Source of the DNA: an uncultured virus (IMG/VR IMGVR_UViG_3300031994_000070)
Lineage: Duplodnaviria; Heunggongvirae; Uroviricota; Caudoviricetes
Virus record (IMG/VR): IMGVR_UViG_3300031994_000070
Length of the DNA stretch: 64,000 bases
Strand: one strand, 5' to 3'
Part shown: in pieces, positions 12,055-48,232 of the stretch
Position numbering within the stretch: the first letter of the stretch is position 1
Layout: each line of letters opens with the position of its first letter
Made by a program: the position numbers and the translations under genes
Notes under the pieces: generated by a model
Seen by the model: the letters and a program-made list of their open reading frames with translations, nothing else
Told to the model about the DNA's origin: nothing
Databases searched by the model: none

Positions 12055-12071
12055 AAAGGAGAGAGATAGAC

Positions 12072-13043
12072 GTGCCTAGTGAAATAAATTTAACAAAATT
12101 AACCATTAATCATGTCGCAAGCCAAGCAGTTTATGATGCGATGGTAAATAAAGGGCTGATTAATGATAATGAGCTTTATTTAATTCCTGGTGATAATACA
12201 TACGTATTACCAATAGCGAGCGCATCGAGTTTAGGCGGTATTAAAGTTGGCAGTAATTTAAGCATTGCTGATACCGGTGTTCTGTCTGCGGTAGACTCAA
12301 AATATGATTTATCTAAATCAAGCACTCGAAGCGGATATACAGGAATTGATATTAAACTGACGGGCTCTGATGGCGCAACTGGCCAAAATAATTATGTAAA
12401 TATACCGACTGCAACACAATCTGCGCTCGGTTTAATGACTGCGGCAGACAAAAAGACTTTAGATGATTTAAGTGGAATAGATGGTTTTAGTAAAGTTAGA
12501 GTTTATACAAGTAATAATGCTTATACTGATGTAGCAGCAAATGATATTGAAGATACTTTAGTTTTTAAATCAGGCGGTAATATAAGTTTTACCCCAACAG
12601 ATAATGATAATACAATTATTATTAGCGCAAGTGATACTAAATATGGGGCAACTAGTAAGTCTATAGATATTATAAACTCAATTACAAGCGGTGTTGCTGC
12701 TACATTAACAACTGAAACTGTAAATGTTGGCGGTATTAAGTATGGTAGCACATGAACTACTCCTTCAATGACCAAGAGTAATGTTACAATTCCAAATGTA
12801 ACCAGTGCTGGTACTGCAACAAATGCGTCTGTGTCTGCTGGAGTGCTGACCATTACTAATGGCACTGCTCCTACGCTAGGAACTGCATTAACTGCTACAT
12901 ATATTAGCGCGTGGGATGCTGGAACATTACCAGAAACAGAATCGCAGAGTTTTGAAGCGGTTAAATCTTGGACAACAAATACTCCAACAGTTGTTACTAA
13001 AAAATCACAGACGGTGCTTACTGCGCTGCAGGCGAATGGTTAA
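12072..13043 (+). CDS. Tail fibre-associated protein, 323 aa (1 TGA=Trp)
   Basis: Joins track ORFs 12072 and 12768 through TGA 12753. N-terminal motif is shared with the 18375 and 20643 genes; contains a LPIAS.S.LGGIKVG fibre motif. Confidence 0.8.
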
Positions 13044-13062
13044 TTAAAGGAGGGATAAAGAT

Positions 13063-16000: not shown

Positions 16001-16410
16001 GCATTTCAATTACAGCTGGGGATGCAAGTAATGCTCCAAAAATTAATGTTACAGTTTTAGGTCGTAGTGGAACAGCACAGGCAATTACTAAAGCATCAAC
16101 TAGTGTATATGGCGTTACTAAATTATCTTCAACTTCCAGTAGTTCAGAACAAAGTTTAGCTGCAACACCTAAATTAGTATATGATTCTATTGCAGCGCTT
16201 GATGTTTCTAATATTTCTGGTTTTGGGGCAGGAAAAACTTTGGCTACATTAACCGAAACAAATGGTAAAATTAGCGCAACATTCCAATCAATTGCGATTG
16301 CGCCATCACAAATTACAAGTACAACTAATGACAATGGAAAAACATTAATTTCAAATGGCACAACAACTGAATGGGGAACAAGAACATTAGTACAAATAGT
16401 GAGGTGGTAA
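13063..16410 (+). CDS. Long tail fibre protein, 1115 aa (2 TGA=Trp)
   Basis: Joins track ORFs 13063 and 13615 through TGA 13411 and 13522. KFWRADGT(TGA)AIP matches KFLREDGT(TGG)AAP in the same gene. Contains LG.VK, LSAAQGKAL and LPLAGGTMTG fibre motifs. Confidence 0.85.
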
Positions 16411-16413
16411 ACT

Positions 16414-17163
16414 ATGGCAATATATTTAGGCACAGATAAGGTAAGTTTAGCGGGAACTAATGGGGGATATGGTCTTAATGGACGTTTGCTTTTAACAAAA
16501 ACTTATTCTATTAATTTAGGGCAGACTAATTATAGTAGTTTAACGCCAAGTACTACTTCTCAAAATTTAACTTTACCAGCAACAACTTATAGTACCAGCG
16601 GAGGAAGTACAATTACTTGTTTTCGTATTGGAGAAGCATATGACGGGACAAAAATTGATTTTAATCAACATGATTATATGGGGTTTGCAGAATGTATTAC
16701 AGAATATAATTATGGAAGTAATAGTGTAAGCGGGACAATTCATCCAATTAGACATTGCCAAGTTAGGGATTATCATGAAGGCAAGTACATTGATAGTATA
16801 AATTCTACTACAGGAATATTAAACACTTCAGCAACTTTTAGAAAAGGTTCTTCATATATTCAAACTCCGCATGCATTATTATATCAAAAAGCTGATAATA
16901 CATATGGAATTACTAATAGTGGATGCGGTATATATCATTCTGGAACGGGCTCTATTAGTTGGTCTACAAATTCTAATTATATTGATTTAATATTAGGCAA
17001 TGTTGCGATGGTAATTAATACTAGTTATGTTCCAGAAGCCGCATTTACTGCAATAAATCCAGCAAATACAACTATAACAATGACTTGGCACCTTTATGAA
17101 TGTGATAAAACAGCCTATGGATATGAATATTCACGTGCCTATGAACTTGCGGCAAATCATTAA
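16414..17163 (+). CDS. Hypothetical tail-associated protein
   Basis: 249 aa ORF with GAGGTGG RBS, in the tail operon. Confidence 0.65.
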   Translation: MAIYLGTDKVSLAGTNGGYGLNGRLLLTKTYSINLGQTNYSSLTPSTTSQNLTLPATTYSTSGGSTITCFRIGEAYDGTKIDFNQHDYMGFAECITEYNYGSNSVSGTIHPIRHCQVRDYHEGKYIDSINSTTGILNTSATFRKGSSYIQTPHALLYQKADNTYGITNSGCGIYHSGTGSISWSTNSNYIDLILGNVAMVINTSYVPEAAFTAINPANTTITMTWHLYECDKTAYGYEYSRAYELAANH

Positions 17164-17266
17164 TATAAAACAAGAACAGCTGCATAATTAGACTTTCATA
17201 ACAATTTTAAGTAGAATATTGCGTAGAATCATTTGATTATACAGAATCAAATAGAAAGGAGCAAAT

Positions 17267-17578
17267 ATGGATATTAATACACTTATAACTTATTTAATTT
17301 CTCCAGCTGGACAGGTGGCATTAATTATGGCACTTGCAGAGCTTATTAAAAAGCAAGAATTGTTTGCATCAAAATATATCTTTTATGTAGACCTTATTTT
17401 TGGTGCAATGCTTGGTATGGGAGTATTCTGGATATATCAAGGAATGCATCCTGTTCTCGCTATACTGGCCGGACTTGGCGAAGGACTTATGGCCGCTGGT
17501 GTATTTAGCGGAATTAAAAATTTAAGAGAAGCATATGATGACCCTGAGTTTGTAGAAGGGAATGAAGAAGATGAGTAA
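17267..17578 (+). CDS. Putative holin
   Basis: 103 aa with three hydrophobic segments, a GL..GL.A.G..S..KN pattern and an acidic tail; overlaps the lysin start. Confidence 0.7.
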   Translation: MDINTLITYLISPAGQVALIMALAELIKKQELFASKYIFYVDLIFGAMLGMGVFWIYQGMHPVLAILAGLGEGLMAAGVFSGIKNLREAYDDPEFVEGNEEDE

Positions 17579-18335
17579 GTACACAGGAGCATATCCCAGC
17601 GTATATACCACTATTAATTATCAAAAAAGATTAGCTAACGAGGCCAATAGACTTGCATATGCTGGTAGACCTAAAGAAGCTGCTTATCCTAATGGACATC
17701 CAACAGCTCAATGAAAGGCGGCTCAAAATAAAGTTGCAAAAGGATTCAAATATTGGTCAGATGCTAGTCGTAGAGGATTTTCTTGTGATGTAGGCGCTGG
17801 AGTAACCATTAGGTCGGTGTATGATAAAAATATGCCCCTTGGGTTATGGAAACAATTAAAATATATGAATGCCCACCCTGAGGCATATAGAAAAGTATCT
17901 CCAGCAAATGCGCAGCCTGGAGATATTGGACATTATACAAAAAAGGGTGTTAAAAGAAGAGGCCATATTTTTATAGTTGGCGAAGGTAATAAAATTAAAG
18001 AAGCTTCTGCTGGCAATTGGGCTTTCTCAACCACAAGCGCTCATAATGCTCGTTTTGATATGAACAATAAATCAAGATTAACAATATTCAGGGTAGTTAA
18101 TCAACAAAAATATACCCCTTTAAAGCAGGGGTCTAAAGGTGAAGAAGTTAAGAAACTTCAAAAATACTTAAATTGGTATTTTAAAGGCGATAAAAATTTA
18201 AAGGCTCTTAAGGTCGATGGAGATTTTGGGCCAATTACCAAGGCTAGAGTAGAACGTATGCAAAAGAAATTAAAGGTAACTGTTGACGGAATAGTAGGCA
18301 CGAAAACATTAAAGGCAATGCAACAGGTTAAATAA
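17571..18335 (+). CDS. Endolysin, NlpC/P60- or CHAP-like catalytic domain plus PG_binding_1 domain, 254 aa (1 TGA=Trp)
   Basis: ATG 17571 overlaps the holin end; TGA at 17712. Contains FSCD..PGDIGHY..GHIFIV and C-terminal LKQGSKGEEVKKLQ..VDGDFGP..VDGIVG. Confidence 0.8.
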
Positions 18336-18374
18336 TTTTTATTGCTAATCTAATTGGAAAGGTAAGATAAAATT

Positions 18375-19136
18375 ATGTCTGAAACACACGATTTGTCAAC
18401 TTTAAAAATCAATTTTTTAACACAGGCGCAATATGACGGTGCGACTGTAAATGATGATGAAGTTTATATTTTAACTGATAGTGGAAAGGGGGCCCAGACA
18501 GCGGCCCCCGCAACAACCGGCTATGCAACAGCCAATTTAAAAAATATCGTTTTGTCAAGTGAAGACGCTACAAACGCAACTGATTATCCAAATGGAACAG
18601 TATGGATGAAGTACGGTAGTGAAATGACATTACTTGATATGTTTTACCCAGTCGGTAGTTATTATGAAACCAGTGATGCAAATTTTAATCCTGAGACTAG
18701 TTGAGGTGGTACTTGAGAGCTAGAAACAGCTGGGCGAGTACATGTATCAGCAGGTACTGGATATAGTACTGGAGCTACTGGCGGTGCGACCAGTGTTAGT
18801 TATACGCCTAGCGGTACTGTAGAGAATACATCTGTTACTCCTAAAGGAACTGTTGGTAATCATACACTTACGATTAATGAAATTCCTTCACATTACCATG
18901 GATTTAATGCATATAATGGTGGTGTTGGCGCCTCTTCAGCAATTCAAAGAGGCTGGTATGGTACGACGTCTGAAACATCTGTGCAAAATACCAATGCTAA
19001 AGGCGGTGGAGGAGCTCATAATCATGGTTTTACTGGTACAGCAGAAAGTCATAAGCATACTTTTACCGGCACTGCTAAATCAATTTCTGTCATGCAACCT
19101 TATATAGTTGTTAATAGATGGCATAGAACGGCATAA
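18375..19136 (+). CDS. Tail protein with T4 gp10-C-like baseplate domain, 253 aa (2 TGA=Trp)
   Basis: YPVGSYY..NPETS(TGA)GGT(TGA)EL..HTLTINEIPSH.H..MQPYIVVNRWHRTA; TAA 19134-19136. Confidence 0.85.
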
Positions 19137-19147
19137 GGAGGTAATGT

Positions 19148-20605
19148 ATGGCTAATAAAAGTGGGAGTATATATGGTAATTATGTAGGAAATACTAGCTA
19201 TGGTTATAGTTACAATCGTTTGCGTATTGATTGATATGAAGATGCAAATAGCATAAATAGTACAACTAACACATCAACTGTATATGCAACTGTATATTTA
19301 GAAAATTCATTTGGGTCACATTCCGATGGAGACCCAACATGGGTAACTTTAACAATAGATGGAACTAGTTATAACGCAACTTTAAATTATTGGTCAGGTT
19401 CAACTGTAACCCTTATATCAAAATCAAAAAGTATAACTCATACTAGCAATGGGTCAAAATCTATTACAATTTCAGCAAGGTTTGATACTAATGGTACTTC
19501 AACTGGCGTAGTAACAGCAAGTGGCACTGCGGTATTAACTACAATTAATTTATGAAGCAACGCTTCTGTTGCAAACAATGGCACTACATCACCGCAAAAC
19601 TCTGCAACTGGAACACTTAAATGGAAAGGAACTAATGGCACTAGTAATGCAATTACTGGGTATACTGTTAAAAAAGGTTCAACGCAAGTTTATTCAGGTA
19701 CGGCGACATCTTGCACGGTAGATTTGGCTTATGGCACAAATACTTTTACAGTAACTGCTACGGCACCACATAATTCCCCAAGCGTAAATATAAGTATTGT
19801 ACGTTATCCAGTATTAAAAATACAGCATAATTTAAATGGCGGCACAATAGCTGATGCACCACATCAAGATGGAACAAATAGTCGTTGATTTAAATACTCA
19901 AACAATTTAGTAACAGTTTCAACAACTACAGCTGATGGGCCATATTCTACACTGGTTTCATCAATGACAACCGCTGATTCTTATATTAATTTATGAAACG
20001 TTGCAACATATAATGCGACTAAAACTGGGTATCATATAACTGGTACTAAAGCATATAATACTAAAGCGGATGGCACTGGGGTTGATATTAATCAAGAGTC
20101 GACGGCCAGTAGCACAAATGTCGCTAATACTACAAATTTAAATGGCGGTACAACATTAACCGCAGATAAAACAGTTAGTATTTATGTTAATTGACAACCA
20201 AATTCTTATACAATTAAATATAATGCGACTGGTGCAATAGGAAGTACTAATTCATCGACCCATTATTATGGAACTAGTAAAAAATTAACAACGAATGGTT
20301 TTACCAAGCCTGGCTATATTTTTTATGGATGAGCAACTACTCAAGCCAAAGCGGATGCTGGAACACGTGATTATACGAATGGCCAGTCAGTTTTAAATTT
20401 AACTTCATCTAATGGTGGTACAATTAATCTTTATGCTGTTTGACAAGCAGCGCCGCCAACAAACAAATATGAATTACCAATAGCTGCAAACACAGATTCT
20501 GAATGATTAAAATTATATAGCTATTGAGCAAATATAAATAAAACTTGAAAGAAAATACAAGATATTTGAGTCAATGTCGATGGGACTTGGCGCAAAGTCT
20601 TTTAA
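19148..20605 (+). CDS. Minor tail/adhesin protein with DUF859-like N-terminus and InlB B-repeat (Listeria-Bacteroides repeat) domains, 485 aa (11 TGA=Trp); absent from the supplied track
   Basis: No TAA/TAG over 1458 nt; AAGGAGGT RBS. GYIFYG(TGA)AT and LYAV(TGA) place TGA at the conserved Trp positions of the repeat. Confidence 0.85.
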
Positions 20606-20642
20606 GACCTCCTTTGAAATGTAGGAGGGGGGGGAGGAATAT

Positions 20643-21218
20643 ATGGCAAGCACACAAAATTTAACTGAATTCAAAATAAACTATCTCACCCAAGAACAAT
20701 ACAATATAGCTCTACAGAATGGGCAAATTAATTCTGATGAGTTGTATTTTACTCCCGAAGATAGAGGAAAAATAATAGTGTCTAATCAAGACGCTTCAAC
20801 CCCAGAGGCATATCCTGAAAATAGTATTTGATTAAAATATGGAGATGCGAGTGGAGGCCAGGCTGACTGGATAGTTGACCAAGGCGCGAGCGGAATTTGA
20901 ACCTATAGAAAATGGGCAAGCGGTGTTGCAGAGTGCTGAGGCCATTTTTCTAGTAGTAGTTTAACTTGAAATAATTATGGTACTCCAACAAATGGGTATG
21001 CAATGTATTATTCGACACCAGTTGATATTGCTCTTCCTTTTACGATGGCAAATGCTAATTATTATGCTATGGCTACCGCCGCAGCAGTAGGGAGCAACGT
21101 CGGTTGGACTGCCGGTATGCGTACGCGTACTACGACACAAGTCGGATTGAGTTTTGTAAGAAATGGCAACACAGGAACTGTTAGTGCTGATATATATATT
21201 AATGGACAGTGGAAATAA
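20643..21218 (+). CDS. Tail protein, 191 aa (4 TGA=Trp)
   Basis: DWIVDQGASGI(TGA)TYRKWASGVAEC(TGA)G is a common phage tail motif. YPENSI(TGA)LKYG matches YPNGTV(TGG)MKYG of the 18375 gene. Confidence 0.85.
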
Positions 21219-21234
21219 GGGGGTGCGGTAGTCT

Positions 21235-23592
21235 ATGTCAACAAAAACAGGCTATATTAAAAACTCCGGCCCTAAGGATGCTGCATTTGATGATGGCCCA
21301 CATATTGGTGGTGTTATTAAATTTGTTTGTACCAGAAGTTCAGAAACATCAAAAAATGTTTCTGTTACAGCTTATTATTATTTAGGTTTTGGTAGTTATG
21401 CTAATTCAAGTGCGTCTTATACTCAATATCAAGTAACTATTTACGCATGAGAAGGTACTTGGTCAGATAGTACTCATCCATCTAAAGTTATTAATAGCAG
21501 TGGTACTAAATGGAAGTGTATTAGTAATACAGCTACCTATTTTTCTGCACATGGTGATGATTCAAATATTGACGTAAAAACTAAGCCTACTCAAAAAACT
21601 GGAACAATAGGTAGCTGGACTATTTCTAATTGGACAAGTGGTTCAAAAACATTTAAATTTCAAATGCGTGATAATGGCTTGCAAGATACATATACAGTAT
21701 CAATTGCTGCGCCATCTTATACTAGCACTATTACTGCTACTGTTGTATCAGCAGATACTACTATGGGTACTGTTACTGGAGGCGGAACTTATACTTCTGG
21801 CGCATCATTTACCATTACAGCCACTCCTAAAGCAGGTTATGAATTCGTTAAATGGACTTATTCCGGAGGGTGAAGTGGAGGTAATACTAGCGCAAGTGTT
21901 ACTATGTCTCAAACGACATCAGGCACAGCAACGGCTAGTTTCCAAGGCAAGCTACAAACAATTACTTTAAATGCAAATGGTGGCAGCGGTGGTACTACTA
22001 GTGTTCAAATTAGAACAGGCACTGCGGCCGGTAGTTATCCATCAATTACCAAACCAACATATACTGGACACCATTTCTTAGGATACTATGATGCTACATC
22101 TGGTGGCACCCAATGATATAATGCGTCCGGTAACTCAGTGCGTCAATTTACTCTGACGTCTGGAGCTACTTGATATGCTCATTGAGCTTTAAATACTTGA
22201 ACTATACATTTTGACGGGAACGGCGCTACTAGTGGTTCAATGGCCAATCAAACGCATACTTATGGAACAGCATTAGCATTTCCAGCTGTTGGTTTTACTA
22301 AAACTGGTTATAAATTTAATGAATGGCAATGAACTGGCGCATCAGATGGCGAAATTCGTCATTATCCTGATAAATATAATATGTCAGGTAGTTGAACATC
22401 AACTAATGGCAATACATATAATATGATTGCTCAATGAACTCCTTGTCATGTAACTATTAAATATCATGCTAATGGGGGTACAATTGCTAATGGCTATTCC
22501 AGTGTAGATGGGTTGTGACGGCTTGGTAGTGACAGTTTAGTTGAATTATCAACAGATAATGGCAGCACATGAGCCGATGTTACATCCTCTCCGTCTGTAG
22601 AAAGTACATATTATAATTTATGAAATGTTAGTACTTTTGGATTAAAGAAAACAGGATACCATATTGATACTGAAACAGCTTATGCGTTAAATACAAGTGG
22701 AACTGGTAATTTATTTAATCAGCAAAATACTGCGGCCGGTGAAACTAATCCAGTTACTACAAAACGACTTAATGGCGGCACGGAAATTACTGCGGATAAA
22801 ACAATTACTTTATACGCCAATTGAAAAGAAGATACTGCTACTTTAACTTACAATAACGGAGGCTTCGGTACCGTTCCAGATGCAGTAACAATGCGATACA
22901 CCACTCAAACGGTTGCCGCGAATGCGCCAGAGGTATTTGGCAAAGATTTTTTAGGTTGGAAACGTAGCGATAATAATGCAATTATTCAACCGGGAGATGT
23001 GATTAAAGCTGCTAATGTTATACCAACTAATATAACGTTAACTGCTCAATGGCGCAATAAAATTATTACATGAGGACAAAAAAATAATATTTGAAACACT
23101 GGCAATACTTTATACGCTAAACATGGTGGGGAATGAAAAGAAGTTATTTCCGCTTGGGTATTAGTAAACGGTGTTTGAAAGATTGTCTTTGGAACTGGTG
23201 GCGGCGCTATTGTTGGTAAGCCAATTGCAACGAATACATCCATATCTATGCTTTTGGGGTCATATGATATAGGAAATAATAGCGATGCGGCGAATGCTTG
23301 AATTCGTAATAAAACAGATGATTATGGATGAGTATATATTGATTATGATGAATTGGACGCAATGACTGAAGCGTATGGTGGTACTATTACCTTAAATGTA
23401 GGCAATTGTGGAACAATTTCAATTCCAGAAAGTGACCATGAGCGTTATTTCCCATATGCTTTATGGAGTGATTATGGGGTTGATTTAAATTTACCCGTAT
23501 CTGCTATATGCACAACTTCAACCGGTCAAAATATTCGTATAAATGTCGTAAAAATTAATAATGCTATAGGTTTACAATTTTTATTAAATTAA
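21235..23592 (+). CDS. Adhesin-like tail protein with several InlB B-repeats, 785 aa (19 TGA=Trp)
   Basis: Joins track fragments 21235, 21664, 21904, 22891 and 23353 in one frame with no TAA/TAG before 23590. YAH(TGA), IAQ(TGA) and LYAN(TGA) fall at repeat ends. Confidence 0.85.
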
Positions 23593-23617
23593 ATTCTTGA
23601 AAGGAGGAAAAAATTAT

Positions 23618-25429
23618 ATGAGTTTACAAGTTTGACTTCCTTTAAATAAGGATTTAAGACAAAAAGGATTAAGTGATGTGACTATTACAAATAATGGGGC
23701 TACTTATGATAATAGCGTTGGCTGTCCTATGGGCGGTTGTTATAGTTTTGATGGCTCTAATGATTATTTAACGGGCACGTATGAAGGAACTGATAACATC
23801 ACTTTTGCTGCATGGATTTATTTCCCAACATTACCGGGAGGAAAACATGTTTTTGATGGACGTATTTCTTCAAATGGCGACGTTGGATATCAGCCAATGT
23901 ATATTACAAATACTCAAATTCAAATTGGATGTAGTAAATCCTCATATGTATATTTTAATTATACATGAGCAGCTAATACATGATATCATGTTTGTGTTAC
24001 ACATTCACCATCTGAGGGCAAAGTTTATATAAACGGTGCATTGATTGGAACATCTACCGCAGCAAAAGGGGCAAATTATGGTGCGTTAACATTTACATTG
24101 GGGAGTAGATTCAATCAAGCAAATTATTGCAATGTAAAATTCAATGATGTGCGCATTTACAATGAATGTCTATCAGCAAACGATGTAGCAACACTCGCCA
24201 CTGGATTAGCGGTACACTATCCATTAACTCGGCAAGGTTTTCCTTCAGAAAATTTATTTCAAGCAACGGCATTTGATAAAGAAGAAATAGGTACGTTGTT
24301 TGGTAATAATGCTGGCGGTTGGGAAAATCGACCATGTGGATTTTATAATGGAGCTGCATCAAACCATAATATTGCAAATGGCATAGATACTATTACTGTG
24401 GATAGCGCCAGCAATATAGGTATTGCTTTTTGTAGAAAAGCAAGCGATATTGCACTCGACTCTAATTCATATTATACGATTTCATGTGAAGCACAAAGTA
24501 CACAAACCTCTAAACCGTTATGCATTGGATTATCTTATAATAATGGAAATGCAACAAGTCCTTGGATATGAAGAGGCGGAACCAATCCTCAAAATTTTAC
24601 GGCAGTAAACAAATGGCAAAAATTTACTTTAACATTTAAACCTGATGCGGATACTCAGTATATTGATTATTGTTTTACTGTATCCGGAGAGGCTGGGTCG
24701 TCATTTACTTATAAATTACGACACTGTAAATTAGAAAAAGGTTCTACAGCAACTGGTTGAATTCCAAATTCAACTGATACTCTTGGAAAGTTAATGGGAT
24801 TAAATTCTAATGCAATTGAAGATATTAGTGGCTTTGATATTCATGGTATTAAATCTGATAATTTACAATGAACAGGTGATACGCATATTTATCCAGTTTG
24901 TGCAGATTTTACTTCAGGGCAAAGTTGCGCTATATTAAATCCGCCTGATTATGAAGGTGCTACTAATTTAACATTAGCGGCATGGGTTTATCCAAAAGCA
25001 AGAAATACTGATAGAGATTGTATTTTAATTTATCGTGGTCAATATTTAACTATTGATAGTACGGGGCATTTAAGTGCTTATTCATATGGTAAATCGCCTG
25101 CTGGATACCACAATAGTACAGGCACTATACCATTAAATCAATGAAGTCATATAGCTATTACTTGAGATGCTAGTAATGTAAAATTATATATAAACGGTTC
25201 ATTAGATACAAGTGTGGCTTGCACAGGCGCACTTGCAAATATATCCAAAACAATTGGCTGTATAGGTTTGGAAGTCCATCCCAATTGAGAAAATCCTACA
25301 TCAACTAGTCGTCAATTTATTGGCTCCATTGCTGACGTGCGTGTATATGCAACTGCTTTATCAGCAGCTGATATGACTAAACTTTATAATAATACAATTT
25401 ATTTAAATAATATGCACAATATTGCTTAA
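23618..25429 (+). CDS. LamG (ConA-like lectin)-CBM-like-LamG protein, 603 aa (9 TGA=Trp)
   Basis: MSLQV(TGA)LPL matches MSLQV(TGG)LPL at 58825. Also NT(TGA)YHVCVT..KVYING, LEKGSTATG(TGA)IP and NQ(TGA)SHIAIT(TGA)D..KLYING. Confidence 0.85.
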
Positions 25430-25528: not shown

Positions 25529-25738
25529 ATGTCAGATAATGTAAAAATTTATATAACAGTTAAAGATGTGCGCCAATTTAAAGAATATGAAAGTTTTTTA
25601 TTTGGTGTTAGTTTTAAAGAGCCCGTAGAAGTTTGTGTTAGTGTAGATGAATTAAATAAAAGATATTACTATGACACAATTGAAATGAATGGGCAATATA
25701 TAATTCGACAAACTGGCGAGTATGACTTGCGTCCCTAG
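25529..25738 (+). CDS. Hypothetical protein whose stop overlaps the tRNA 5' end
   Basis: 69 aa, AAAGGA RBS; TAG 25736-25738 lies inside the tRNA. Confidence 0.6.
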   Translation: MSDNVKIYITVKDVRQFKEYESFLFGVSFKEPVEVCVSVDELNKRYYYDTIEMNGQYIIRQTGEYDLRP

Positions 25739-25823
25739 TGTAATGGTAGCACACTGGTCTTCAAAACCAGGGTAACCGTGTCCAAAGCGGTGGGTGTGGG
25801 TTCGAATCCTACGGGGCGTGCCA
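25729..25823 (+). tRNA. UGA-decoding tRNA (anticodon UCA, tRNA-Trp-like) with a 21-nt extra arm, 95 nt
   Basis: Acceptor GCGTCCC/GGGGCGT, discriminator G, encoded CCA end. D-arm GTGT-AATGGTA-GCAC. Anticodon arm CTGGT-CTTCAAA-ACCAG (TCA at 25761-25763). T-arm GTGGG-TTCGAAT-CCTAC. The region between anticodon and T arms is 25 nt. Confidence 0.95.
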
Positions 25824-33488: not shown

Positions 33489-36400
33489 TTACACCTCCTG
33501 GTATCTTTCACTTTGAAAATTTAACGTACCATCTCTATTAATCGCAGATACTTTATATAACTGATGACCAGCACTTGTTCCGTATTTTTTCGCTATAAAG
33601 TTATCGTTTGAACGGAAACCTTGTACCATAATAATTGACCCACGATTAAACCAAGATTTTTCAACAACGGATTTTGTTCCATCGTCATTAATAACAGATA
33701 TTTGTTTATCAAATAAACTGAAATATTCTTTTCTAAATTTAACTTCTACAACACCAGTTGTAGTTAATAATGAAACTGTACTACGAACTTTGTCTTTTGC
33801 TATACAAGTTCCACAAATTTTATTTAATTTAAATATGTTTCCCGCATGCCCATTCTTTGTTGTATATGTTCTTTCAACTACTGGATGCTCTGGTAATTTA
33901 AAGAAATCAACAATTCCATATTTATCTGTATTTGTTCCAGCCAATTCGTGGTCATGATAGTAAAAACATAATACTTCCATTTCCCAAGTTGAAATTGTGC
34001 CTGATGCATACCGGTCCCATGTTTCATTAAATATCCTAATATTTAATAAATTTAATAATTTGTCTTTATTTGCATTAATCCAATCTCTAAATACAGTTTT
34101 TGTACCTTCATAATATTTATCCCAAGTTTTTACAGATAAATACATTTCACTATCAACTACATCAACTGAACTATCTAAACCTAACTTAATTAAAAAGTTA
34201 AACGCTCTATCATCTATTTTATATTTATCCTTTGAATATTTGCAAATTGCTTTTAAATATCTATTAAATTCATAAATACTCTTTTCATTTTTTAAACTCT
34301 TCGGTACTAAATCATAATCCATTAATGCCTTTAAATTTTGAAGAGTTAATTTTTTCTTTTTATCACATACATCCCATAAATATTGAGTCATACATTCTTT
34401 ACGGTCTTGTAATTCATCAAATGCGCCACTCTTTATTAATGAAATCATTGCTGATTTTGTTGGCTTAATTTTATCAATAAATTCTTCAACTGTCGCATAT
34501 GGACGATTTGCAATAATTTCTTCAACTAATTCATCGCCAACATTTAACAACGCTTTCATGCCAAACAATATACGATTATGTTCAACATCTGGGATAAAAC
34601 CAAATTGAGAACGATTAATATCAATTAAACTAATTTCGATACCAGCTTTTCTCATTTTTCCAATTGCCGTTGCTAATTTCTTATAATCAGTTGAACCAGA
34701 CGCATCTTCTAATGAACCGCTATCTACGATTAAACAAGCCGTATCCCAATATATTGGATTAAAATTCGTCGCCAAATATAATGTTTGTATTCCTACAAAA
34801 CTATACGCTAATGCATGTATTGTACTAAATGAATATCCCATTTGTGGGCCAACACCGCATTTCCATACATAATGCCCAAGATTCATACTCTTGGCTTGCG
34901 TTAATACTTTATCATGCAATGCTGGAATCTTATCCATTTGTTTTTTACCAACAATTTTCCTCGCTGCATTCGCTTCTGCTAATGTAAAACCACAAATATC
35001 TTTATCCATTAACATTCGCATTAATTGTTCCTGTGAAGGTGGTACCCCATATGATTCCAAGAAATATCTTTCCAGCACTTTCTGTTCAGCCTTTGTTAAT
35101 CCAGCCTTATCCATTTCTTGATACCACAGATTAATATTGTTTTTAAACCTAACATATTTATCTAATGGAGATTCTTCACCTTTTTCTGCGGTCATTAATC
35201 GAATTAATCCATTTGTGTCCGCCATTTCTGTTGGAGTTTTCGGTTTAACTTTTTTTGCTCCTTGTGTTCCAACAGCCGAATCAAACTGGAAACAGTCAAT
35301 AACATTACCATTTGCCAACGCATTCCAAATTCTTGGGTCTTCGATTGGTAAAACTTCGGGGTGCAAATATTTATCATAAATCTGCCTTAATGTTAAATCT
35401 TTTTCAATTAAACCATTATCTTGTAATAATTTAATTGTTTGAATAATAATATCTTGAACCGAAGTTAACAAGAAATCATATTTAACATTACCAGCGGCCT
35501 CTTCTTTATGTAAATCCCACTGAGTTACTAATGCGCCACTTGGAGTCCTCATAATTGCCGAATGGTCAAATATATCTTCACCATATAATATAACACCAGA
35601 CGCATGACTTCCACGACGAGTTATTAATCCTTCAATTCCTTGAATAATATCTAATAACCCTGGATAGTTATTCAACTCATAAATAAATGCTGATATTGGG
35701 GTACGGCCCTTTTCAGGATTGCCTTGAATCATATCTTTAATTGACCAACTGAAACCACGTTCAACCGGAACTAATGAAGATAAATATTGCGCCTCATCAA
35801 TATCAATTCCATTGGGGCAATCTTTACTTCTATATCCTCGGCATGCTGTTAATATGGCCGCCTTTGATGTTTCCGTTCCAAAAGTTGCAACCTGAACAAT
35901 TCCTAATTCTCCACGTTCTTTACGAATCGCTTCAAAGATTGCTGGTAGTTTACTTGGCGCCAAATCCAAATCAATATCTCCCAATTCAACACGTTCATCA
36001 TTTAAATAACGCCACCACGGAAGATTCCATTTAATTGGGTCAAGTTGTGTAATTCCTAATAAATAATGATTTAAACCTGAACAAGCTGAACCACGGCCCG
36101 CTCCAACTGTACTTCCACACTCCCAAAATAAATCAATATAATGTTGCAATGTATTCGGATATGCGAACATACAAGTTTGAAGTTTTTCGCCTATGATTCT
36201 TTTAACTCTGGCCTCTTCTTCTAATCGGTCAATATATTCATCTTTTAAACCGATACCTTTGTTAATTAATGCTTCAATACATTGATTAATCCAATATCTT
36301 TCTTGAACATTATCACTATTAAATAAACTATTTAATACTGTCCAACGACCTCTGTTAAACTCACCCTGAAGCCCATCCCATCGATTACCCTTTGGATACT

Positions 36401-37347
36401 TTTTAACATCGACCTCTGGAATACTTTGATGATGTTCCAAACTATAAAACTCAATCTTCTGACGAATTTCTTCAAGATTATTCACCATTTGATTAATGGT
36501 TTCATCGTCATAAACCAGTTTTAAAAAGTCATAAACCTCTTCGGGCTTCATCATATATGAAAATTCATAGAATGAATCAACTTCTCGCTCGCCATCTTTA
36601 GAATTTAAAAATGCTTTATGAATCGACCTATCTTCTTTGTTTAAATAATGGCTATCTGTTGCAAAAACCATCTTTAATCCATAAGCCTGTGCAATTCTTA
36701 AAATCTTTTTATTAACAATTAACTGGTCTTCATTATCTGCTGGCGCTACCTCTAAATAAAAATCTTCTCCAAAAACTTCTTTTGTGAAATCTAAAAATCG
36801 AAGAATATTATTATAATACACCGCCGCCGCATTATTATCTCCAGCCATCTGCGCTTTCGACATTAATAATGCATTACTCGATAATTCACCACCAATACAT
36901 GCCGTTGTTCCAATTACATGGCCGGGATACTTTGACAACACTTCTTTTAATTCAGACTTTAAAGTTGGAACTCGTTCCAATCCTCGGTCTGAATACATAT
37001 TATACCAAGCCTTTGAACTTAATTCTTTTAACGCTCTAAAACCTATCTCATCTTTTGCAATTAAAATGAAATGATAATACTGTTGCCCTGATTCTCTTGT
37101 ATCTGTTAAATAAATTTCATTACCTAACCCAATAGTGAAGTCTGGATTTGTTTCTCTCAATTTTTTCGCATATTGATTAACCTCCATGGCCGCACTTAAA
37201 CTTTCATGGTCAGTAATAACTAAGCCGCTTAACCCTAATTTTACCGCATGATTAATTAAATCGATAGGTTTATTAATACTATCAATTAAACGTAAATTAG
37301 ATTTAAGAATAATGAGTATGATTATGTATGCTATAATAACTACTCAT
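33489..37347 (-). CDS. dnaE: DNA polymerase III alpha subunit (family C), interrupted by a 7-nt stop-containing insert after codon 14
   Basis: GAGRGSA, DIDLD, HASGV and GYSFS..HA motifs. The PHP N-terminus HNHTHYS (ATG 37347) is out of frame with SNLRLIDS..ITDHE, which runs into the track ORF starting at 37187. Confidence 0.9.
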
Positions 37348-37392
37348 TGTCAACGGCATCACCCCCATTTTTTTATTTTATTCCTTATTATT

Positions 37393-37421
37393 ATTATATC
37401 ATAATTATATAAAAAAAACAA
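37393..37421 (-). promoter_or_regulatory. SigA-type promoter upstream of dnaE
   Basis: TTGTTT-17-TATAAT with an extended -10 TG. Confidence 0.55.
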
Positions 37422-37444
37422 CAGAGAGTATCATTTTACCTCTG

Positions 37445-38617
37445 TTATTTTTGTCTTACTACTACAAGTTTTGATTTTGCTCGCGTGATAGCGGTATATA
37501 GCCATCGCATATGTTCTTCTTCGACATAAGGGAAATTTTCTTCAAAGACTAATACCTTATTATATTCGCTACCTTGACTTTTATGGGCCGTAATGGCATA
37601 CCCATAATCAAATTCACGAGGTCTTGCTTCTCCTCTAAATTTCCTCCAATTAGTTTCATTAATTGTTGGCACGCCAGTGGTTAATAAATTATAATCAACC
37701 AAAACATCATTGTAATAGGGGTCACCAAGAGGACAATCAATATCAAATCCTTCGGGGAGTATATCCAATTTCATCGCGGGATGCAGCTTACGTGTTTCAA
37801 ATTTACGAATGAAACTGATTGTTCCCGTCATTCCGTTCACTAAAGCGTCCCCAATATGGTTAATATCTTCCCAATAATTATTTAAGCAAATTATTTTATC
37901 GCCTTCTAATGGCTCTAAATCTTCAACGTCATAGAGTAATTTCCTTACGTCTTGATTAATCTGCCGACGAGTTGCATTTTTTGCACAAATAATCTGGTCT
38001 GCCCAAGTAAACATTCCTGGTATTACTTCTTCGGGGTCGATAATTTGAATTTGTTCACCTTTATATAATTCTAATGGCTTGTTCTGACGCACATCCATTG
38101 ATAACCTAATAATTTCATTATCCTGAGCTTGACGAACAATTTCAGACAAGAAACAATCGGGGTGGTCTAACATGCCGTTGTCCTGTGCTTTTACTGGCGG
38201 CAATTGGCCTGGGTCGCCAAAAGCAATAACTGGAATGTGGTGTGATAATAATAATTCCCAAATATCTTTCGGCAACATAGAAACCTCATCAACGATAATA
38301 AGTTTATATGAGCCGATATATTTTTTAGGAATGTGTTTAAAACTTCCATTAGCTTGCGGTACCGACCTATATAATAATCGATGGGCGGTCTGTGCATTAT
38401 AGCAACCTTTGTTCGCCATAACTAAAGCCGCTTTACCAGTAAACGCGATATAAGCGACTTCGGTCTGTGGGTTTAACCCAAGAGCATCAACTACTATTGG
38501 AATAAGTGTACTTTTTCCACTTCCCGCATAGCCAACAATAATAGTATAAGGGTCTTTGTGCTGATATTTTGTTTTACAAATTTTAATTGCTTCTTCTTGT
38601 GAGTTTGTTAAAATCAT
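37445..38617 (-). CDS. RecD/Dda-like superfamily 1B helicase
   Basis: GYAGSGKS, AFTGKAA, IVDEVSM, GDPGQLPPV, YAITAHKSQGSE and YTAITRA motifs. Confidence 0.9.
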   Translation of the reverse strand: MILTNSQEEAIKICKTKYQHKDPYTIIVGYAGSGKSTLIPIVVDALGLNPQTEVAYIAFTGKAALVMANKGCYNAQTAHRLLYRSVPQANGSFKHIPKKYIGSYKLIIVDEVSMLPKDIWELLLSHHIPVIAFGDPGQLPPVKAQDNGMLDHPDCFLSEIVRQAQDNEIIRLSMDVRQNKPLELYKGEQIQIIDPEEVIPGMFTWADQIICAKNATRRQINQDVRKLLYDVEDLEPLEGDKIICLNNYWEDINHIGDALVNGMTGTISFIRKFETRKLHPAMKLDILPEGFDIDCPLGDPYYNDVLVDYNLLTTGVPTINETNWRKFRGEARPREFDYGYAITAHKSQGSEYNKVLVFEENFPYVEEEHMRWLYTAITRAKSKLVVVRQK

Positions 38618-47007: not shown

Positions 47008-47976
47008 TTATTTCATACTATATCCATAAGTTTTGGCTTGATAAAAATCTTGCCAATACTGTTCTTGTTCATTAAGAATCTCTGGTGGACAATCTTCTAA
47101 CCATTCAAAAGTAAAATTTTCTATGCCATGTTTTTGCATAGCGGGATATAATTTATTCATTGGTGCTTTTTCCGCCCCCACCGCACATTTAATATGTGTT
47201 TGCCAACGCGCACTTCCATCACGTGCTTGTCCGACATAACACTTTCCATTAATTAAATTTGTAATTTTATAAATACCAGTTCGTTTTTCTTGCCCTAAAA
47301 CCCTACCAATTAGGTCAGATAAAGGGCGCTGATAATAAACTGAATAAATTACTTTATTTAATGGGCGCGGGTCACGAAGATACGGCGCAATAGATTTGAT
47401 TCGATTAATCTCTTCTATATCCGTATCAGATAAATGTAATTGATAAAACTTTTGTTGATTTTGTTTTTCAGCTTCTCGTTTATACGCTTCAACAGCCGCA
47501 TTAGACATTGAGCGCATTTTTGCTAAATTATCTTTATACTCTTGGATAGTAAGATTATAATTATCAACAAACTGATGTAAGGATGCCGATGTTTCATCAA
47601 GTATTTTTAAATACTCTGTTTGATAACTTTTAACATACCCATCATATTTACGTTTTAAATCAACGCATTTATTTTCATATTCTGTTTGTAATAATTCAAG
47701 CTGAAGTTTTTGATTTTTTTGTTGTTGTGCTTCGCTCTCTTGAAAATTACTATCTAATAATTCTTTTTCTAATTTTAATTGACTTAGTTGGCTTGTCCAT
47801 TCTTGATTCTGTTTCCATAACTCTTGGTTAAGAGCAGATAGTTGTTCATTATTATGTTGCAGTATTTGATTTTTTTCTTCTAATGACTCGTCTAAAGATT
47901 TAGTTCGCTTTAAATGTGGCCGTAAGATTAAATAAGTTATCAGAATACTGCATAATGACGCAACTATGATTCACAT
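47008..47976 (-). CDS. Membrane-anchored coiled-coil GIY-YIG nuclease, 322 aa (TGA=Trp at codon 2)
   Basis: ATG-TGA at 47976-47971, then a hydrophobic helix and an open Q/E/L-rich coiled coil running into the track ORF at 47517; GIYKITN..CYVGQ..RW..H. Confidence 0.75.
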
Positions 47977-47986
47977 AATCTGTACA

Positions 47987-48232
47987 TTAGACATCCAGTG
48001 CTAACCCCGCATCATTCAAAATTAAATATTTAACATTGATAAAGTTTCCATCTGGACCTTGAACCTGCATTGGCATTCTATATCCAAAATTTTTGGTACT
48101 AATTGCCATTGTAAATGCACCATCGATAGATTTTTTACTAATTCCTAAAGCAGATTCTAAATCAGCAGCTGTTAGCTTTTTATCTTTGTTATCTTGTAAA
48201 TATTTGATTATTCTCTTTGTGTTCTCTGTCAT
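47987..48232 (-). CDS. Winged-helix DNA-binding protein
   Basis: IIKYLQ..LTAADLESALGIS helix-turn-helix and KYLILNDAG wing. Confidence 0.65.
   Translation of the reverse strand: MTENTKRIIKYLQDNKDKKLTAADLESALGISKKSIDGAFTMAISTKNFGYRMPMQVQGPDGNFINVKYLILNDAGLALDV

What the first reader, a model, noticed from the sequence alone, without database searches (positions are those of the whole stretch)
37299..37347. dnaE is split by TCT-TAA-A-TCT: candidate programmed 7-nt ribosomal hop in the replicative polymerase
Seen (- strand): ATG 37347 reads MSSYYSIHNHTHYS ending in TCT (37308-37306), followed by TAA (37305-37303), one A, and a second TCT (37301-37299). That second TCT opens the main frame: NLRLIDSINKP..ITDHE and on into the rest of the polymerase. 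A TCT-to-TCT hop rebuilds a contiguous PHP motif HNHTHYSNLRLIDS. A GGGGGTG RBS and a SigA-type promoter lie upstream of the short first frame. Known: matched take-off and landing codons with a stop right after take-off define translational bypassing (T4 gene 60, stop-hopping). Inference: polymerase output may depend on slow termination at UAA, which would couple replication to release-factor availability in a phage that must compete with RF2. Alternatives are a +1 frameshift (giving HYS-K-SNL), an intron or mobile-element scar, or an assembly error.
Basis: partly seen in the sequence, partly recalled or inferred. Interest (0 to 1): 0.85.

Follow-up and report, generated by a model that had tools for sequence, protein, structure and literature searches.

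The report
Likely ribosome hop in phage polymerase
The DNA polymerase gene of this uncultured gut phage is broken after 14 codons by seven real bases that ribosomes most likely hop over, and relatives show many versions of the same trick, often next to a selfish nuclease gene.

Summary
Confirmed. On the - strand a 14-codon ORF (ATG 37347) ends TCT-TAA. One A follows, then a second TCT opens the 1,270-codon frame of a YorL/DnaE-type polymerase. Contigs from three independent DNA studies and one RNA-library contig carry the same 7 nt. Joining at the two TCTs restores the family's constant H-x-H-T-x-Y-S-N-L-R-L-I-D spacing.

The break is not unique: 30 of 170 related phage loci are interrupted within the same 20 codons. 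Some carry 5- to 11-nt inserts that start with a stop right after a TCY serine codon, and 9 of 12 architectures end in another serine codon. Others carry a prfB-like CTT-TGA-C +1 site. Broken genes are under strong purifying selection (dN/dS 0.03-0.09).

Only a hop explains all insert lengths. +1 frameshifting (HYS-KS-NLR) stays possible for the 7-nt class.

The breaks are recurrent and one rides a ~200-nt replaced patch. They often sit beside an HNH homing-endonuclease gene (12/29 broken vs 4/130 intact loci), as in T4 gene 60/MobA. The window has no such gene.

Verdict: likely hop, origin probably nuclease immunity, release-factor coupling untested. This scan noted similar dnaE gaps before on other phage DNA.

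The parts
37411..37446 (-). Inverted repeat (AACAGAG ... CTCTGTT) plus a run of eight T, right after the stop of the Dda-like helicase gene. Probable terminator that separates helicase and polymerase transcripts.
   Evidence: Read and conserved in L003. Not reported by the simple scan (loop longer than its limit), so this is inferred.
37393..37401 (-). TG-n-TATAAT extended -10-like element upstream of the short ORF.
   Evidence: Read. Similar tatgatataat / tggtataat elements stand at the same distance in many relatives. One search listed only a weaker overlapping match. Function inferred.
37359..37366 (-). Shine-Dalgarno-like GGGGGTGA.
   Evidence: Broken relatives carry similarly strong GGAGGTG / GGACGGTGA leaders.
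37303..37347 (-). Short first frame, MSSYYSIHNHTHYS plus TAA. It carries the H-x-H-T-x-Y-S part of PHP motif I. In-frame alternative starts lie upstream (TTG 37353, ATG 37359, GTG 37362, ATG 37368).
   Evidence: The homologue N-termini are of the same length. H-x-H-T-H-Y-S is kept through synonymous changes in other broken lineages.
37306..37308 (-). Take-off codon TCT (Ser), in the P site when TAA is in the A site.
   Evidence: The take-off codon is TCT or TCC in 18 of 18 unique broken 5' ends, against 15 of 79 intact ones.
37303..37305 (-). TAA stop directly after the take-off codon.
   Evidence: Relatives have TAA, TAG or TGA here.
37302..37302 (-). Single spacer base A. With the stop it forms the 4-nt gap.
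   Evidence: This base is G, C or T in relatives.
37299..37301 (-). Landing codon TCT. Decoding would resume at AAT 37298-37296.
   Evidence: The landing triplet is a Ser codon in 9 of 12 architectures.
33489..37298 (-). Rest of the polymerase frame (1,269 codons plus stop): NLRLIDS... with PHP, pol3_alpha, finger and HHH_6 domains.
   Evidence: Three of three SNPs just downstream of the landing codon (37272, 37278, 37293) are synonymous third positions. dN/dS is 0.077 to L003.
25729..25823 (+). Context only: tRNA with anticodon UCA (opal suppressor) of this TGA-recoded phage.
   Evidence: Plus-strand late genes hold 9-19 in-frame TGA. The polymerase frame holds none.

Best explanation
The gene is a working replicative (YorL/DnaE-type) polymerase gene that carries a 7-nt non-coding insert, read here as TAA-A-TCT. 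Proposed mechanism: ribosomes start at ATG 37347 (or a nearby in-frame start) and read 14 codons. With peptidyl-tRNA-Ser on UCU in the P site and UAA in the A site, a fraction of them do not terminate. The tRNA lets go of UCU, the mRNA slides 7 nt, the tRNA re-pairs with the second UCU, and decoding goes on at AAU. The product is a 1,283-residue polymerase with an intact HNHTHYSNLRLID motif. The remaining ribosomes release a 14-residue peptide.

Shown: the sequence layout, its reality in independent data, its recurrence in relatives in several gap lengths, purifying selection on broken genes, and the link of such breaks to HNH endonuclease genes in relatives.

Inferred: the hop itself, its efficiency, and the origin of the insert. 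The proposed origin is a change that destroys the target site of a homing endonuclease aimed at this conserved motif, spread by gene conversion, as with the T4 gene 60 bypass and MobA. In the window's lineage the endonuclease gene would have been lost or was never co-transferred.
For: (1) Layout.
(2) Real DNA: L058 and L059, and contigs of three independent DNA studies without an indel at the site.
(3) Constant spacing: the hop product matches the family. Y-S-N-[LI]-R is contiguous in all full-length clusters among 120 homologues and in 139 of 140 intact loci.
(4) Same take-off and landing logic with different letters and lengths: TCT|TAG|TCT (6 nt); TCT|TAA A|TCT, TCT|TAG G|TCT and TCT|TAA C|TCT (7 nt); TCC|TAA TG|TCT, TCC|TGA TG|TCT and TCC|TGA TG|TCA (8 nt); TCT|TAG GTG|TCA (9 nt); TCC|TAG GTAAG|TCC (11 nt). 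L203 from a genome collection has TCT|TAA C|TCT. These displacements fall in all three classes modulo 3, which no single frameshift can serve.
(5) The landing triplets were not specified in the search patterns.
(6) The take-off codon is TCY in 18/18 unique broken 5' ends against 15/79 intact ones. AGY take-off: 0 real hits.
(7) Broken genes are functional by selection. dN/dS is 0.077 for window vs L003 (both broken, dS 1.0), 0.034 for window vs L059, and 0.085 for L038 vs L048. The short ORF keeps H-x-H-T-H-Y-S through synonymous changes.
(8) No canonical start exists in the long frame before 37187, yet the codons between are conserved (SNPs).
(9) No other DNA polymerase was found among the window ORFs scanned.
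(10) Origin. An HNH gene lies directly upstream in L040/42/46/93/105/121 and inside the old 5' end in L174, followed there by a fresh broken 5' copy. It also lies directly upstream in L205 and L208. Overall 12/29 broken vs 4/130 intact loci. L005 differs from its near-twin L009 by a ~210-nt replaced tract that carries the break. State changes on the tree number 17, at least 13 of them forced by well-supported branches.
(11) Precedents read in passages: T4 gene 60/MobA (10.1101/2022.08.31.505936) and the phiHau3 terminase 10-nt and 7-nt gaps (PMC10732093).
Against: There is no protein-level evidence of any kind. Three architectures lack a Ser landing triplet: TTT in L126/128/180/182, GCT in L174, and ACC in the 5-nt TAA-CC class of 10 contigs. 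Either near-cognate landing is tolerated or another mechanism acts there.

No RNA structure beyond chance surrounds the site (z -0.9 to +0.2 in 5 broken loci), unlike gene 60.

From recall, stop-hops in E. coli constructs were inefficient (around a percent).

Loop length between S and D is not fixed across DnaE families. Thermus Pol III alpha has three residues fewer in the alignment, and L169 has one residue more. A two-residue insertion made by a +1 shift might therefore be tolerated.

In L127, L129, L136/139 and L142 an ATG or GTG stands right before the landing Ser codon, so reinitiation is possible there.

In L174 and L136 the 'stop' at the site is the codon that the phage itself recodes: 3 in-frame TAG and 6 in-frame TGA in their dnaE.

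The window has no HNH homologue (best E 0.72), and window and L003 show no replaced patch. The nuclease origin is therefore by analogy for this lineage. Shared ancestry of 5' cassettes may inflate the codon statistics.
Confidence: 0.57

Rival explanations
1. Programmed +1 frameshift at UCU-UAA-A. With the stop in the A site the ribosome skips the U and reads AAA UCU AAU, giving HYS-K-S-NLR, a polymerase with two extra residues in the PHP loop.
For: A 7-nt insert needs only a +1 shift. The two 7-nt relatives without a Ser landing codon (TAA-A-TTT, TAG-T-GCT) are easier to read this way. A Ser codon followed by a stop is the antizyme +1 site (recalled). Other relatives use an undoubted prfB-like +1 site, CTT-TGA-C, six codons downstream. 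The S-to-D loop length varies among DnaE families and in L169.
Against: tRNA-Ser cannot re-pair on the +1 codon CUU (inference from pairing rules). It cannot serve the 5-, 6-, 8-, 9- and 11-nt inserts of sister lineages, which keep the same Ser-stop ... Ser-Asn frame. No intact relative has a two-residue insertion here (0 of 140 loci; 0 of the full-length clusters). It gives no reason for the second codon to stay a Ser codon.
Confidence: 0.22
2. Two separate products. The 14-residue peptide is released at TAA, and the polymerase body is started afresh near the junction (reinitiation at a non-canonical codon such as ATT 37310 or 37313). It either works without H-x-H or with the peptide bound in trans.
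For: In L127, L129 and L136/139 the stop overlaps an ATG (TGATG, TAATG), and in L142 a GTG precedes the landing Ser codon, a classic coupling layout. T4 topoisomerase works as split subunits (passages of 10.1101/2022.08.31.505936).
Against: The window, L003, L015, L005, L134, L144 and the TAA-CC class have no ATG/GTG/TTG near the junction. The short ORF keeps the metal-binding H-x-H-T-H-Y-S under purifying selection, which argues that it ends up in the enzyme. The duplicated Ser codon has no role in this model.
Confidence: 0.08
3. The gene is dead or dying: a frameshift mutation in a polymerase the phage no longer needs, or a defective genome.
For: Gene callers truncate it (1,232-aa proteins P0002 and P0003). 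Only 64 kb of the genome was examined for a second polymerase. L174 looks like a very recent nuclease invasion with a poor landing codon.
Against: dN/dS is 0.03-0.09 between pairs that are both broken, at dS up to 1.0. The same variant occurs in sheep and goat gut data of several years and studies. Three of three nearby SNPs are synonymous. No other polymerase lies in the replication module.
Confidence: 0.05
4. Under the phage's TGA-reading code the long frame is translated from ATG 37505 through four TGA codons, so no recoding at the junction is needed.
For: Under table 4 the frame is open from 37505 (1,338 aa, 4 TGA), and the phage has a tRNA(UCA).
Against: That stretch overlaps the helicase 3' end and the terminator/promoter region. 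It lacks H-x-H. In L003 the same frame is closed by a TAA with no start after it (frame 0). The replication genes otherwise hold no in-frame TGA.
Confidence: 0.02
5. Sequencing or assembly artefact.
For: None beyond the prior that frameshifts in metagenome contigs are often errors.
Against: The junction is identical in L058 and L059 and in contigs of three independent DNA studies and one RNA library. No homopolymer run is involved. Diverged relatives carry variant versions.
Confidence: 0.01

Closest known systems
Phage T4 gene 60 translational bypass within the MobA HNH homing-endonuclease element (passages of bioRxiv 10.1101/2022.08.31.505936; review PMC5009743)
   Same: [quoted passage not shown] The insert sits in a conserved, metal-binding part of an essential replication enzyme. 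Relatives link it to an HNH endonuclease gene that brings its own copy of the target's flank. Close relatives exist with and without the insert. The nuclease is often lost while the gap stays.
   Different: The displacement is 7 nt (5-11 in relatives), not 50. No take-off stem-loop beyond chance. The codon is Ser UCU, not Gly GGA. The gene is a polymerase, not a topoisomerase. Many architectures occur, plus a +1 site as an alternative solution. Hosts are gut Firmicutes-type phages with recoded stops. The window itself has no nuclease gene.
Stop-hops in E. coli constructs (Weiss et al. 1987, known to me only through PMC5009743 and the reference list of PMC10732093)
   Same: Peptidyl-tRNA moves from a codon before a stop to a matching codon just after it, and minimal signals suffice.
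   Different: Those were synthetic and in-frame (9 nt for one residue). PMC5009743 states that no natural in-frame stop-hop was known. Here the sites are natural, mostly out of frame, and in an essential gene. L131 (TCT-TAG-TCT) and L142 would be natural in-frame cases.
Streptomyces phage phiHau3 terminase: 10-nt, and in a prophage 7-nt, gaps after a rare UUA codon (PMC10732093, passages)
   Same: Short gaps in an essential phage gene. The junction is conserved in intact relatives. Bypass rather than frameshift was argued from invariant spacing, and the paper reports MS support in E. coli.
   Different: The slow A-site codon there is a rare sense codon tied to host development, and strong local structures were predicted. 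Here it is a stop codon and no structure is predicted. No nuclease link was described in the passages I read.
prfB (RF2) +1 frameshift site CUU UGA C (recalled; mentioned in PMC5009743)
   Same: Relatives (20 loci) carry exactly CTT-TGA-C/T at the L-L-D codons, six codons downstream of the window's site, giving Leu then Asp after a +1 shift.
   Different: The window's site has UCU in the P site, which cannot re-pair at +1. No Shine-Dalgarno-like element is seen 3 nt upstream in the relatives (by eye).

Membership tests
Translational bypassing (hopping) site | Take-off codon and landing codon are cognate for one tRNA. | tested here: met
   TCT 37308-37306 and TCT 37301-37299. Identical pairs occur in 5 of 12 relatives' architectures and Ser-Ser pairs in 9 of 12.
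Translational bypassing (hopping) site | A slow-to-decode codon (a stop) sits in the A site at take-off. | tested here: met
   TAA 37305-37303.
Translational bypassing (hopping) site | The protein product lacks any residue encoded by the gap. | not testable with these tools
   Needs mass spectrometry of the junction peptide. It is only inferred from the invariant spacing in relatives.
T4 gene 60-type bypass cassette | A take-off stem-loop or other stimulatory mRNA structure. | tested here: not met
   Folds of the window and 4 broken relatives gave z-scores of -0.37, 0.04, -0.08, 0.17 and -0.87.
T4 gene 60-type bypass cassette | A coding gap of about 50 nt with a nascent-peptide signal. | tested here: not met
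   The gap is 4 nt (7-nt displacement). Only 14 residues are made before take-off. A peptide signal was not tested.
T4 gene 60-type bypass cassette | It is part of a homing-endonuclease mobile element. | tested here: inconclusive
   Met in relatives (L040, L174, L205, L208 and others). Not met in the window, where the helicase gene lies directly upstream.
prfB-type +1 programmed frameshift | A P-site codon that can re-pair in the +1 frame before a stop (CUU UGA C), with an upstream Shine-Dalgarno stimulator. | tested here: not met
   The window has UCU UAA A, whose +1 codon CUU is not cognate for tRNA-Ser. No SD-like element lies just upstream. The heptamer is present only in other relatives.
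DnaE / YorL-type DNA polymerase III alpha | PHP, pol3_alpha NTPase, finger and HhH domains in order. | tested here: met
   Pfam E-values 1.5e-19, 4.2e-39, 1.9e-19 and 2.2e-16. PDB Pol III alpha chains match at E 4.7e-68. SPbeta yorL is 37% identical.
HNH homing endonuclease (the ORFs next to broken relatives) | An HNH catalytic motif or family match. | tested here: met
   L040 ORF: PHROG 374 at 1.1e-11 and 1035 at 8.3e-09, with Pfam HNH below its cut-off (18.5 vs 21.4 bits). L180 ORF: PHROG 559 and 9084 at about 6e-14. Cleavage activity and target were not tested.

The most novel reading that the evidence does not exclude
Natural stop-hopping is a general, evolvable way of reading genes in gut phages. 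Homing endonucleases aimed at the conserved PHP motif of the replicative polymerase keep generating 5- to 11-nt stop-containing micro-inserts. Peptidyl-tRNA-Ser(GGA) hops over them without any elaborate mRNA signal. Because the A-site codon is a stop, or in some relatives the very stop codon that the phage recodes, the yield of polymerase is set by the balance of release factor and suppressor tRNA. That would make the insert double as a timer which shuts polymerase synthesis off at the early-to-late switch of stop-recoded phages.
Probability: 0.2. Interest if true: 0.92.

Novelty: new variant of a known kind. Interest (0 to 1): 0.8.

Why it matters
Programmed bypassing has been known from very few systems: T4 gene 60 and its kin, yeast mitochondria, and a candidate in Streptomyces phages. 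The review PMC5009743 (passages read) says that short-distance counterparts with matched codons were long expected but scarce, and that natural in-frame stop-hops were unknown.

This case is a large natural series of short gaps (5, 6, 7, 8, 9 and 11 nt) at one site of an essential polymerase. It comes with intact twins for comparison and a +1 site as an alternative solution. That series is a ready-made mutational analysis of what a minimal hop needs. It also gives a second, independent case in which a homing endonuclease and a recoding signal travel together.

There is a practical point as well. Gene callers truncate these polymerases: 14 of 120 homologous clusters start at the same internal Met. 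Phage annotations therefore lose the catalytic H-x-H motif.

Tried and rejected
- Megablast of the region against cultured-phage records found nothing. The closest cultured relatives are about 41% identical Enterococcus phages.
- No whole genome is held for the window, and the record of L058 is not held. A second polymerase elsewhere in the roughly 127-kb genome could not be excluded.
- RNA folding gave no structure beyond chance.
- Take-off at AGY serine codons: two pattern scans gave one hit, an unrelated chance match.
- HNH homologue in the window: none.
- A replaced patch between the window and L003: none seen. Identity is 75-97% throughout in 60-nt bins.
- The code-4 long ORF from 37505 was rejected (see rivals).
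- The RNA-library contigs leave 37342-37458 uncovered. I draw nothing from that, and the RNA contig over the site may be DNA carry-over.
- The simple promoter/terminator scan did not report the elements I read by eye.
- Notes of this scan by place and by sequence returned nothing.
- Literature searches and term look-ups in 10.1101/2021.08.26.457843 (0 mentions of frameshift, bypass or DNA polymerase) and PMC10885494 found no description of a dnaE hop. The library lacks most subscription journals and I saw no supplements.
- The tree is FastTree only, and the 25 pattern-scan loci contribute about 100 residues each. Deep placements and the exact number of state changes are therefore rough.
- Loci from different collections include duplicates of one contig, and counts by locus are not counts of independent events.
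Full report
**The observation**

On the - strand, ATG 37347 opens MSSYYSIHNHTHYS. The last codon is TCT (37308-37306), followed by TAA (37305-37303), one A (37302) and a second TCT (37301-37299). That second TCT lies in the frame that continues SNLRLIDSINKP...ITDHE for 1,270 codons to the stop at 33491-33489.

In this long frame the preceding stop is TGA 37346-37344, and the first ATG/GTG/TTG is only at 37187, 38 codons further on. The long frame is a DnaE-type polymerase with PHP, pol3_alpha, finger and HHH_6 domains. It matches Pol III alpha chains in the PDB at E 4.7e-68. It is 37-41% identical to polymerases of SPbeta (yorL), SPbeta-like and Enterococcus phages. Its PHP match starts at profile position 8, so the H-x-H of motif I lies in the short ORF.

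A strong GGGGGTGA (37366-37359), a TG-n-TATAAT (37401-37393) and a hairpin with a T-run after the helicase stop (37446-37411) are read. The simple scan did not list them, so their function is inferred.

**Is it real DNA?**

Two other metagenome assemblies carry the identical junction (L058 100%, L059 99%). Coded runs from animal gut samples hold the stretch.

Contigs from three independent DNA studies span the site:
- X3 record 4, 36900-37700, 0 gaps.
- X5 record 9, 36941-37700. Its only indel is a T behind 37390.
- X7 record 17, 37093-37700, 0 gaps.

A contig of an RNA library (X14 record 1, 37086-37341, 0 differences) keeps the 7 nt. That library may hold DNA, so this is only weak evidence against removal at the RNA level. 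The three SNPs seen just downstream (37272, 37278, 37293) are all third-position synonymous changes in the long frame.

**What the family looks like**

Among the 120 best homologous protein clusters, the full-length ones read H-x-H-[TS]-x-[YF]-S-N-[LIF]-R-L-[LI]-D without interruption. Fourteen clusters, including a 99% and a 91% relative, start at the same internal Met as the gene call here.

I fetched DNA for relatives by homology. Of 172 loci, 170 could be assessed:
- 139 are uninterrupted.
- 1 has an in-frame extra codon.
- 30 are broken within the first 20 codons.

By unique junction sequence, 19 of 105 are broken.

Two kinds of break occur. Type C (20 loci) is a single extra T that makes CTT-TGA-C/T at the L-L-D codons. 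This is the prfB heptamer, and it gives Leu-Asp after a +1 shift. Type A is the window's kind: an insert that begins with a stop directly after the Ser codon of Y-S.

**The type A series**

Pattern scans specified H-T-x-Y/F-S(TCN)-stop, then any 1-30 nt, then N-L-R-L-L-D. The triplet before Asn was left free. They returned 25 loci in the viral collection and one in a genome collection (L203).

Together with the homology loci, the architectures are as follows.

| Take-off | Stop | Spacer | Landing | Displacement | Where |
|---|---|---|---|---|---|
| TCT | TAG | none | TCT | 6 nt, in frame | L131 |
| TCT | TAA | A | TCT | 7 nt | window lineage |
| TCT | TAG | G | TCT | 7 nt | L003, L134/147, L144/146 |
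| TCT | TAA | C | TCT | 7 nt | L015/074, L203 |
| TCT | TAA | A | TTT | 7 nt | L126/128/180/182 |
| TCT | TAG | T | GCT | 7 nt | L174 |
| TCC | TAA | TG | TCT | 8 nt | L129 |
| TCC | TGA | TG | TCT | 8 nt | L136/139 |
| TCC | TGA | TG | TCA | 8 nt | L127 |
| TCT | TAG | GTG | TCA | 9 nt, in frame | L142 |
| TCC | TAG | GTAAG | TCC | 11 nt | L005 |
| TCY | TAA | CC | none (ACC precedes Asn) | 5 nt | 10 contigs |

Nine of 12 architectures end in a Ser codon and five in the identical codon.

The take-off codon is TCT or TCC in 18 of 18 unique broken 5' ends. Intact genes use TCY in only 15 of 79, TCA/TCG in 43 and AGY in 21. Scans for AGY take-off gave no real hit.

**Are broken genes alive?**

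Yes, by selection. dN/dS is 0.077 between the window and L003 (both broken, dS 1.0, 516 codons). It is 0.034 between the window and L059, and 0.085 between two type C genes (dS 0.63). The short ORF keeps H-x-H-T-H-Y-S while its codons change synonymously (CAT/CAC, ACT/ACG/ACC, TAT/TAC, TCT/TCC). So the short ORF is still selected as part of the enzyme.

No other DNA polymerase was found among the window ORFs I scanned. These make up a full replication module: primase, DnaB-like helicase, Dda-like helicase, RecJ-like nuclease, topoisomerase II, NrdD/G and others. The rest of the genome could not be searched.

**How it is most likely read**

A hop of peptidyl-tRNA-Ser from the codon before the stop to the Ser codon after the gap gives the canonical protein in every architecture with a Ser landing codon, whatever the gap length. 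The displacements of 5, 6, 7, 8, 9 and 11 nt fall in all three classes modulo 3. Sister lineages on the tree differ in length: the 5-nt and 7-nt classes are sisters, and the 6-nt and 9-nt loci pair. A frameshift model would need +1, +2 and read-through in close relatives. A hop is indifferent to gap length.

For the 7-nt class alone a +1 shift (HYS-K-S-NLR) remains possible:
- The TTT and GCT landing triplets fit it better.
- The S-to-D loop differs in length among DnaE families. Thermus has three residues fewer.
- L169 has one residue more.

Against it, tRNA-Ser cannot re-pair on CUU, and no intact relative has a two-residue insertion (0 of 140).

Reinitiation is conceivable only where an ATG or GTG precedes the landing codon (L127, L129, L136/139, L142). 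The window has none.

I found no mRNA structure beyond chance. If it is a hop, it is a minimal one, like the stop-hops of E. coli constructs described in the review PMC5009743 (passages).

**Where the breaks come from**

On a FastTree of 142 distinct rows, broken and intact states change 17 times, at least 13 forced by well-supported branches. Close relatives differ in state.

L005 (11-nt insert) and L009 (intact) are 97-100% identical in 30-nt bins on both sides. They are only 53-70% identical over a tract of about 210 nt, from -94 to +116 around the landing codon. This is a replaced patch.

Type C loci L040/42/46/93 have a 221-residue ORF inserted directly upstream of the polymerase start, absent from their intact relatives. 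It matches HNH endonuclease families: PHROG 374 at 1.1e-11 and 1035 at 8.3e-09, with Pfam HNH just under its cut-off.

In L174 a 64%-identical homologue sits inside the old 5' end of the polymerase gene, right after the Tyr codon. A fresh copy of the 5' end follows, and that copy carries the 7-nt break. L180/182 have an HNH fragment upstream. L205 (8-nt class) and L208 (6-nt class) have HNH genes directly upstream.

By tblastn, an HNH-like ORF lies within 1.5 kb upstream in 12 of 29 broken loci and in 4 of 130 intact ones. This covers loci with at least 800 nt of upstream sequence, and near-duplicates were not removed. Type C loci without the gene keep the element's 3' leader.

This is the pattern described for T4 gene 60 and MobA. 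There an HNH element brings a homologous flank plus a bypass insert that protects against its own nuclease, insertions are recent, and the nuclease is often lost while the bypass stays (passages of 10.1101/2022.08.31.505936).

The window has no HNH homologue and no detectable patch relative to L003. For this lineage the nuclease origin is therefore an inference from the family. The break seems to have been kept through the window-L003 divergence.

The phage recodes TGA. A tRNA with anticodon UCA lies at 25729-25823, and plus-strand late genes hold up to 19 in-frame TGA. Replication genes, including this polymerase, hold none. The stop at the hop site is TAA, which both release factors read.

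Nothing I could compute bears on coupling to release-factor levels. One observation is intriguing and unexplained. Two relatives use at the site the very stop codon that their own genes recode: TAG in L174, whose dnaE has 3 in-frame TAG, and TGA in L136, with 6 in-frame TGA.

**Known or new**

Searches of the paper library and look-ups in two papers found no description of a hop or frameshift in a phage dnaE. The library is incomplete and I saw no supplements.

The closest precedents are T4 gene 60/MobA, the phiHau3 terminase gaps (PMC10732093, passages) and synthetic stop-hops.

After I had reached this reading, the notes of this scan showed three earlier reports of short stop-containing gaps in the PHP motif of dnaE in other phages (soil and actinophage relatives), also beside nuclease genes. 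They agree with this report but are unchecked AI notes on other DNA, and I did not test them.

I class this as a new variant of a known kind.

Noticed in passing
window 25729-25823 (+) and 9667-25429 (+): The phage reads TGA as sense in its late genes (for example 19 in-frame TGA in 21235-23592) and carries a 95-nt tRNA with anticodon UCA. ARAGORN draws this tRNA with a long variable arm and labels it SeC. Internal repeats of the late protein (AQW next to AQ-TGA, LYA.W next to LYA.-TGA) suggest that TGA means Trp, which sits oddly with a long-arm tRNA.
   Followed up: partly
window 47008-47994 (-): A GIY-YIG homing-endonuclease ORF (PHROG 314, 7168, 5123) sits in the replication module. It extends from 169 to 328 residues if one TGA is read. 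It is a nuclease gene that needs the late code, as Borges et al. noted for another phage clade.
   Followed up: no
L038, L040-L049, L090-L098, L105, L121, L123, L152, L153, L164 (about codon 20 of dnaE): Twenty related loci carry CTT-TGA-C/T, the prfB-type +1 frameshift heptamer, at the L-L-D codons of the same polymerase. The codons TTA CTT before the TGA are invariant, while neighbouring codons vary synonymously.
   Followed up: partly
L174:1781-2440 (+): The HNH endonuclease gene inserted in this relative's dnaE holds 8 in-frame TAG, and its dnaE holds 3. This is a TAG-recoded phage whose junction stop is also TAG.
   Followed up: partly
L007, L032, L045, L067, L069, L071, L089, L094, L095, L162, L163, L178, L191, L199, L201, L202: Uninterrupted relatives with 1-5 in-frame TAG in the first 430 codons of dnaE. 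In these TAG-recoded phages even the early polymerase gene uses the new code.
   Followed up: no
G001 (L209), G002 (L208), G004 (L207): In three relatives the polymerase match is split into pieces 0.3-1.1 kb apart at about residues 440, 700 and 826. One gap (L207:355-1254) holds a GIY-YIG-like ORF. These are probably introns or other nuclease-bearing inserts.
   Followed up: no
window 37347-37368 (-) and the leaders of broken relatives: Leaders of broken genes from distant clades resemble each other (GG.GGTGATGCC..TGACA) and carry strong Shine-Dalgarno sequences. After the window's own lineage, the best leader matches are almost all broken loci. This could reflect a shared cassette origin or compensation for low recoding yield.
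   Followed up: partly
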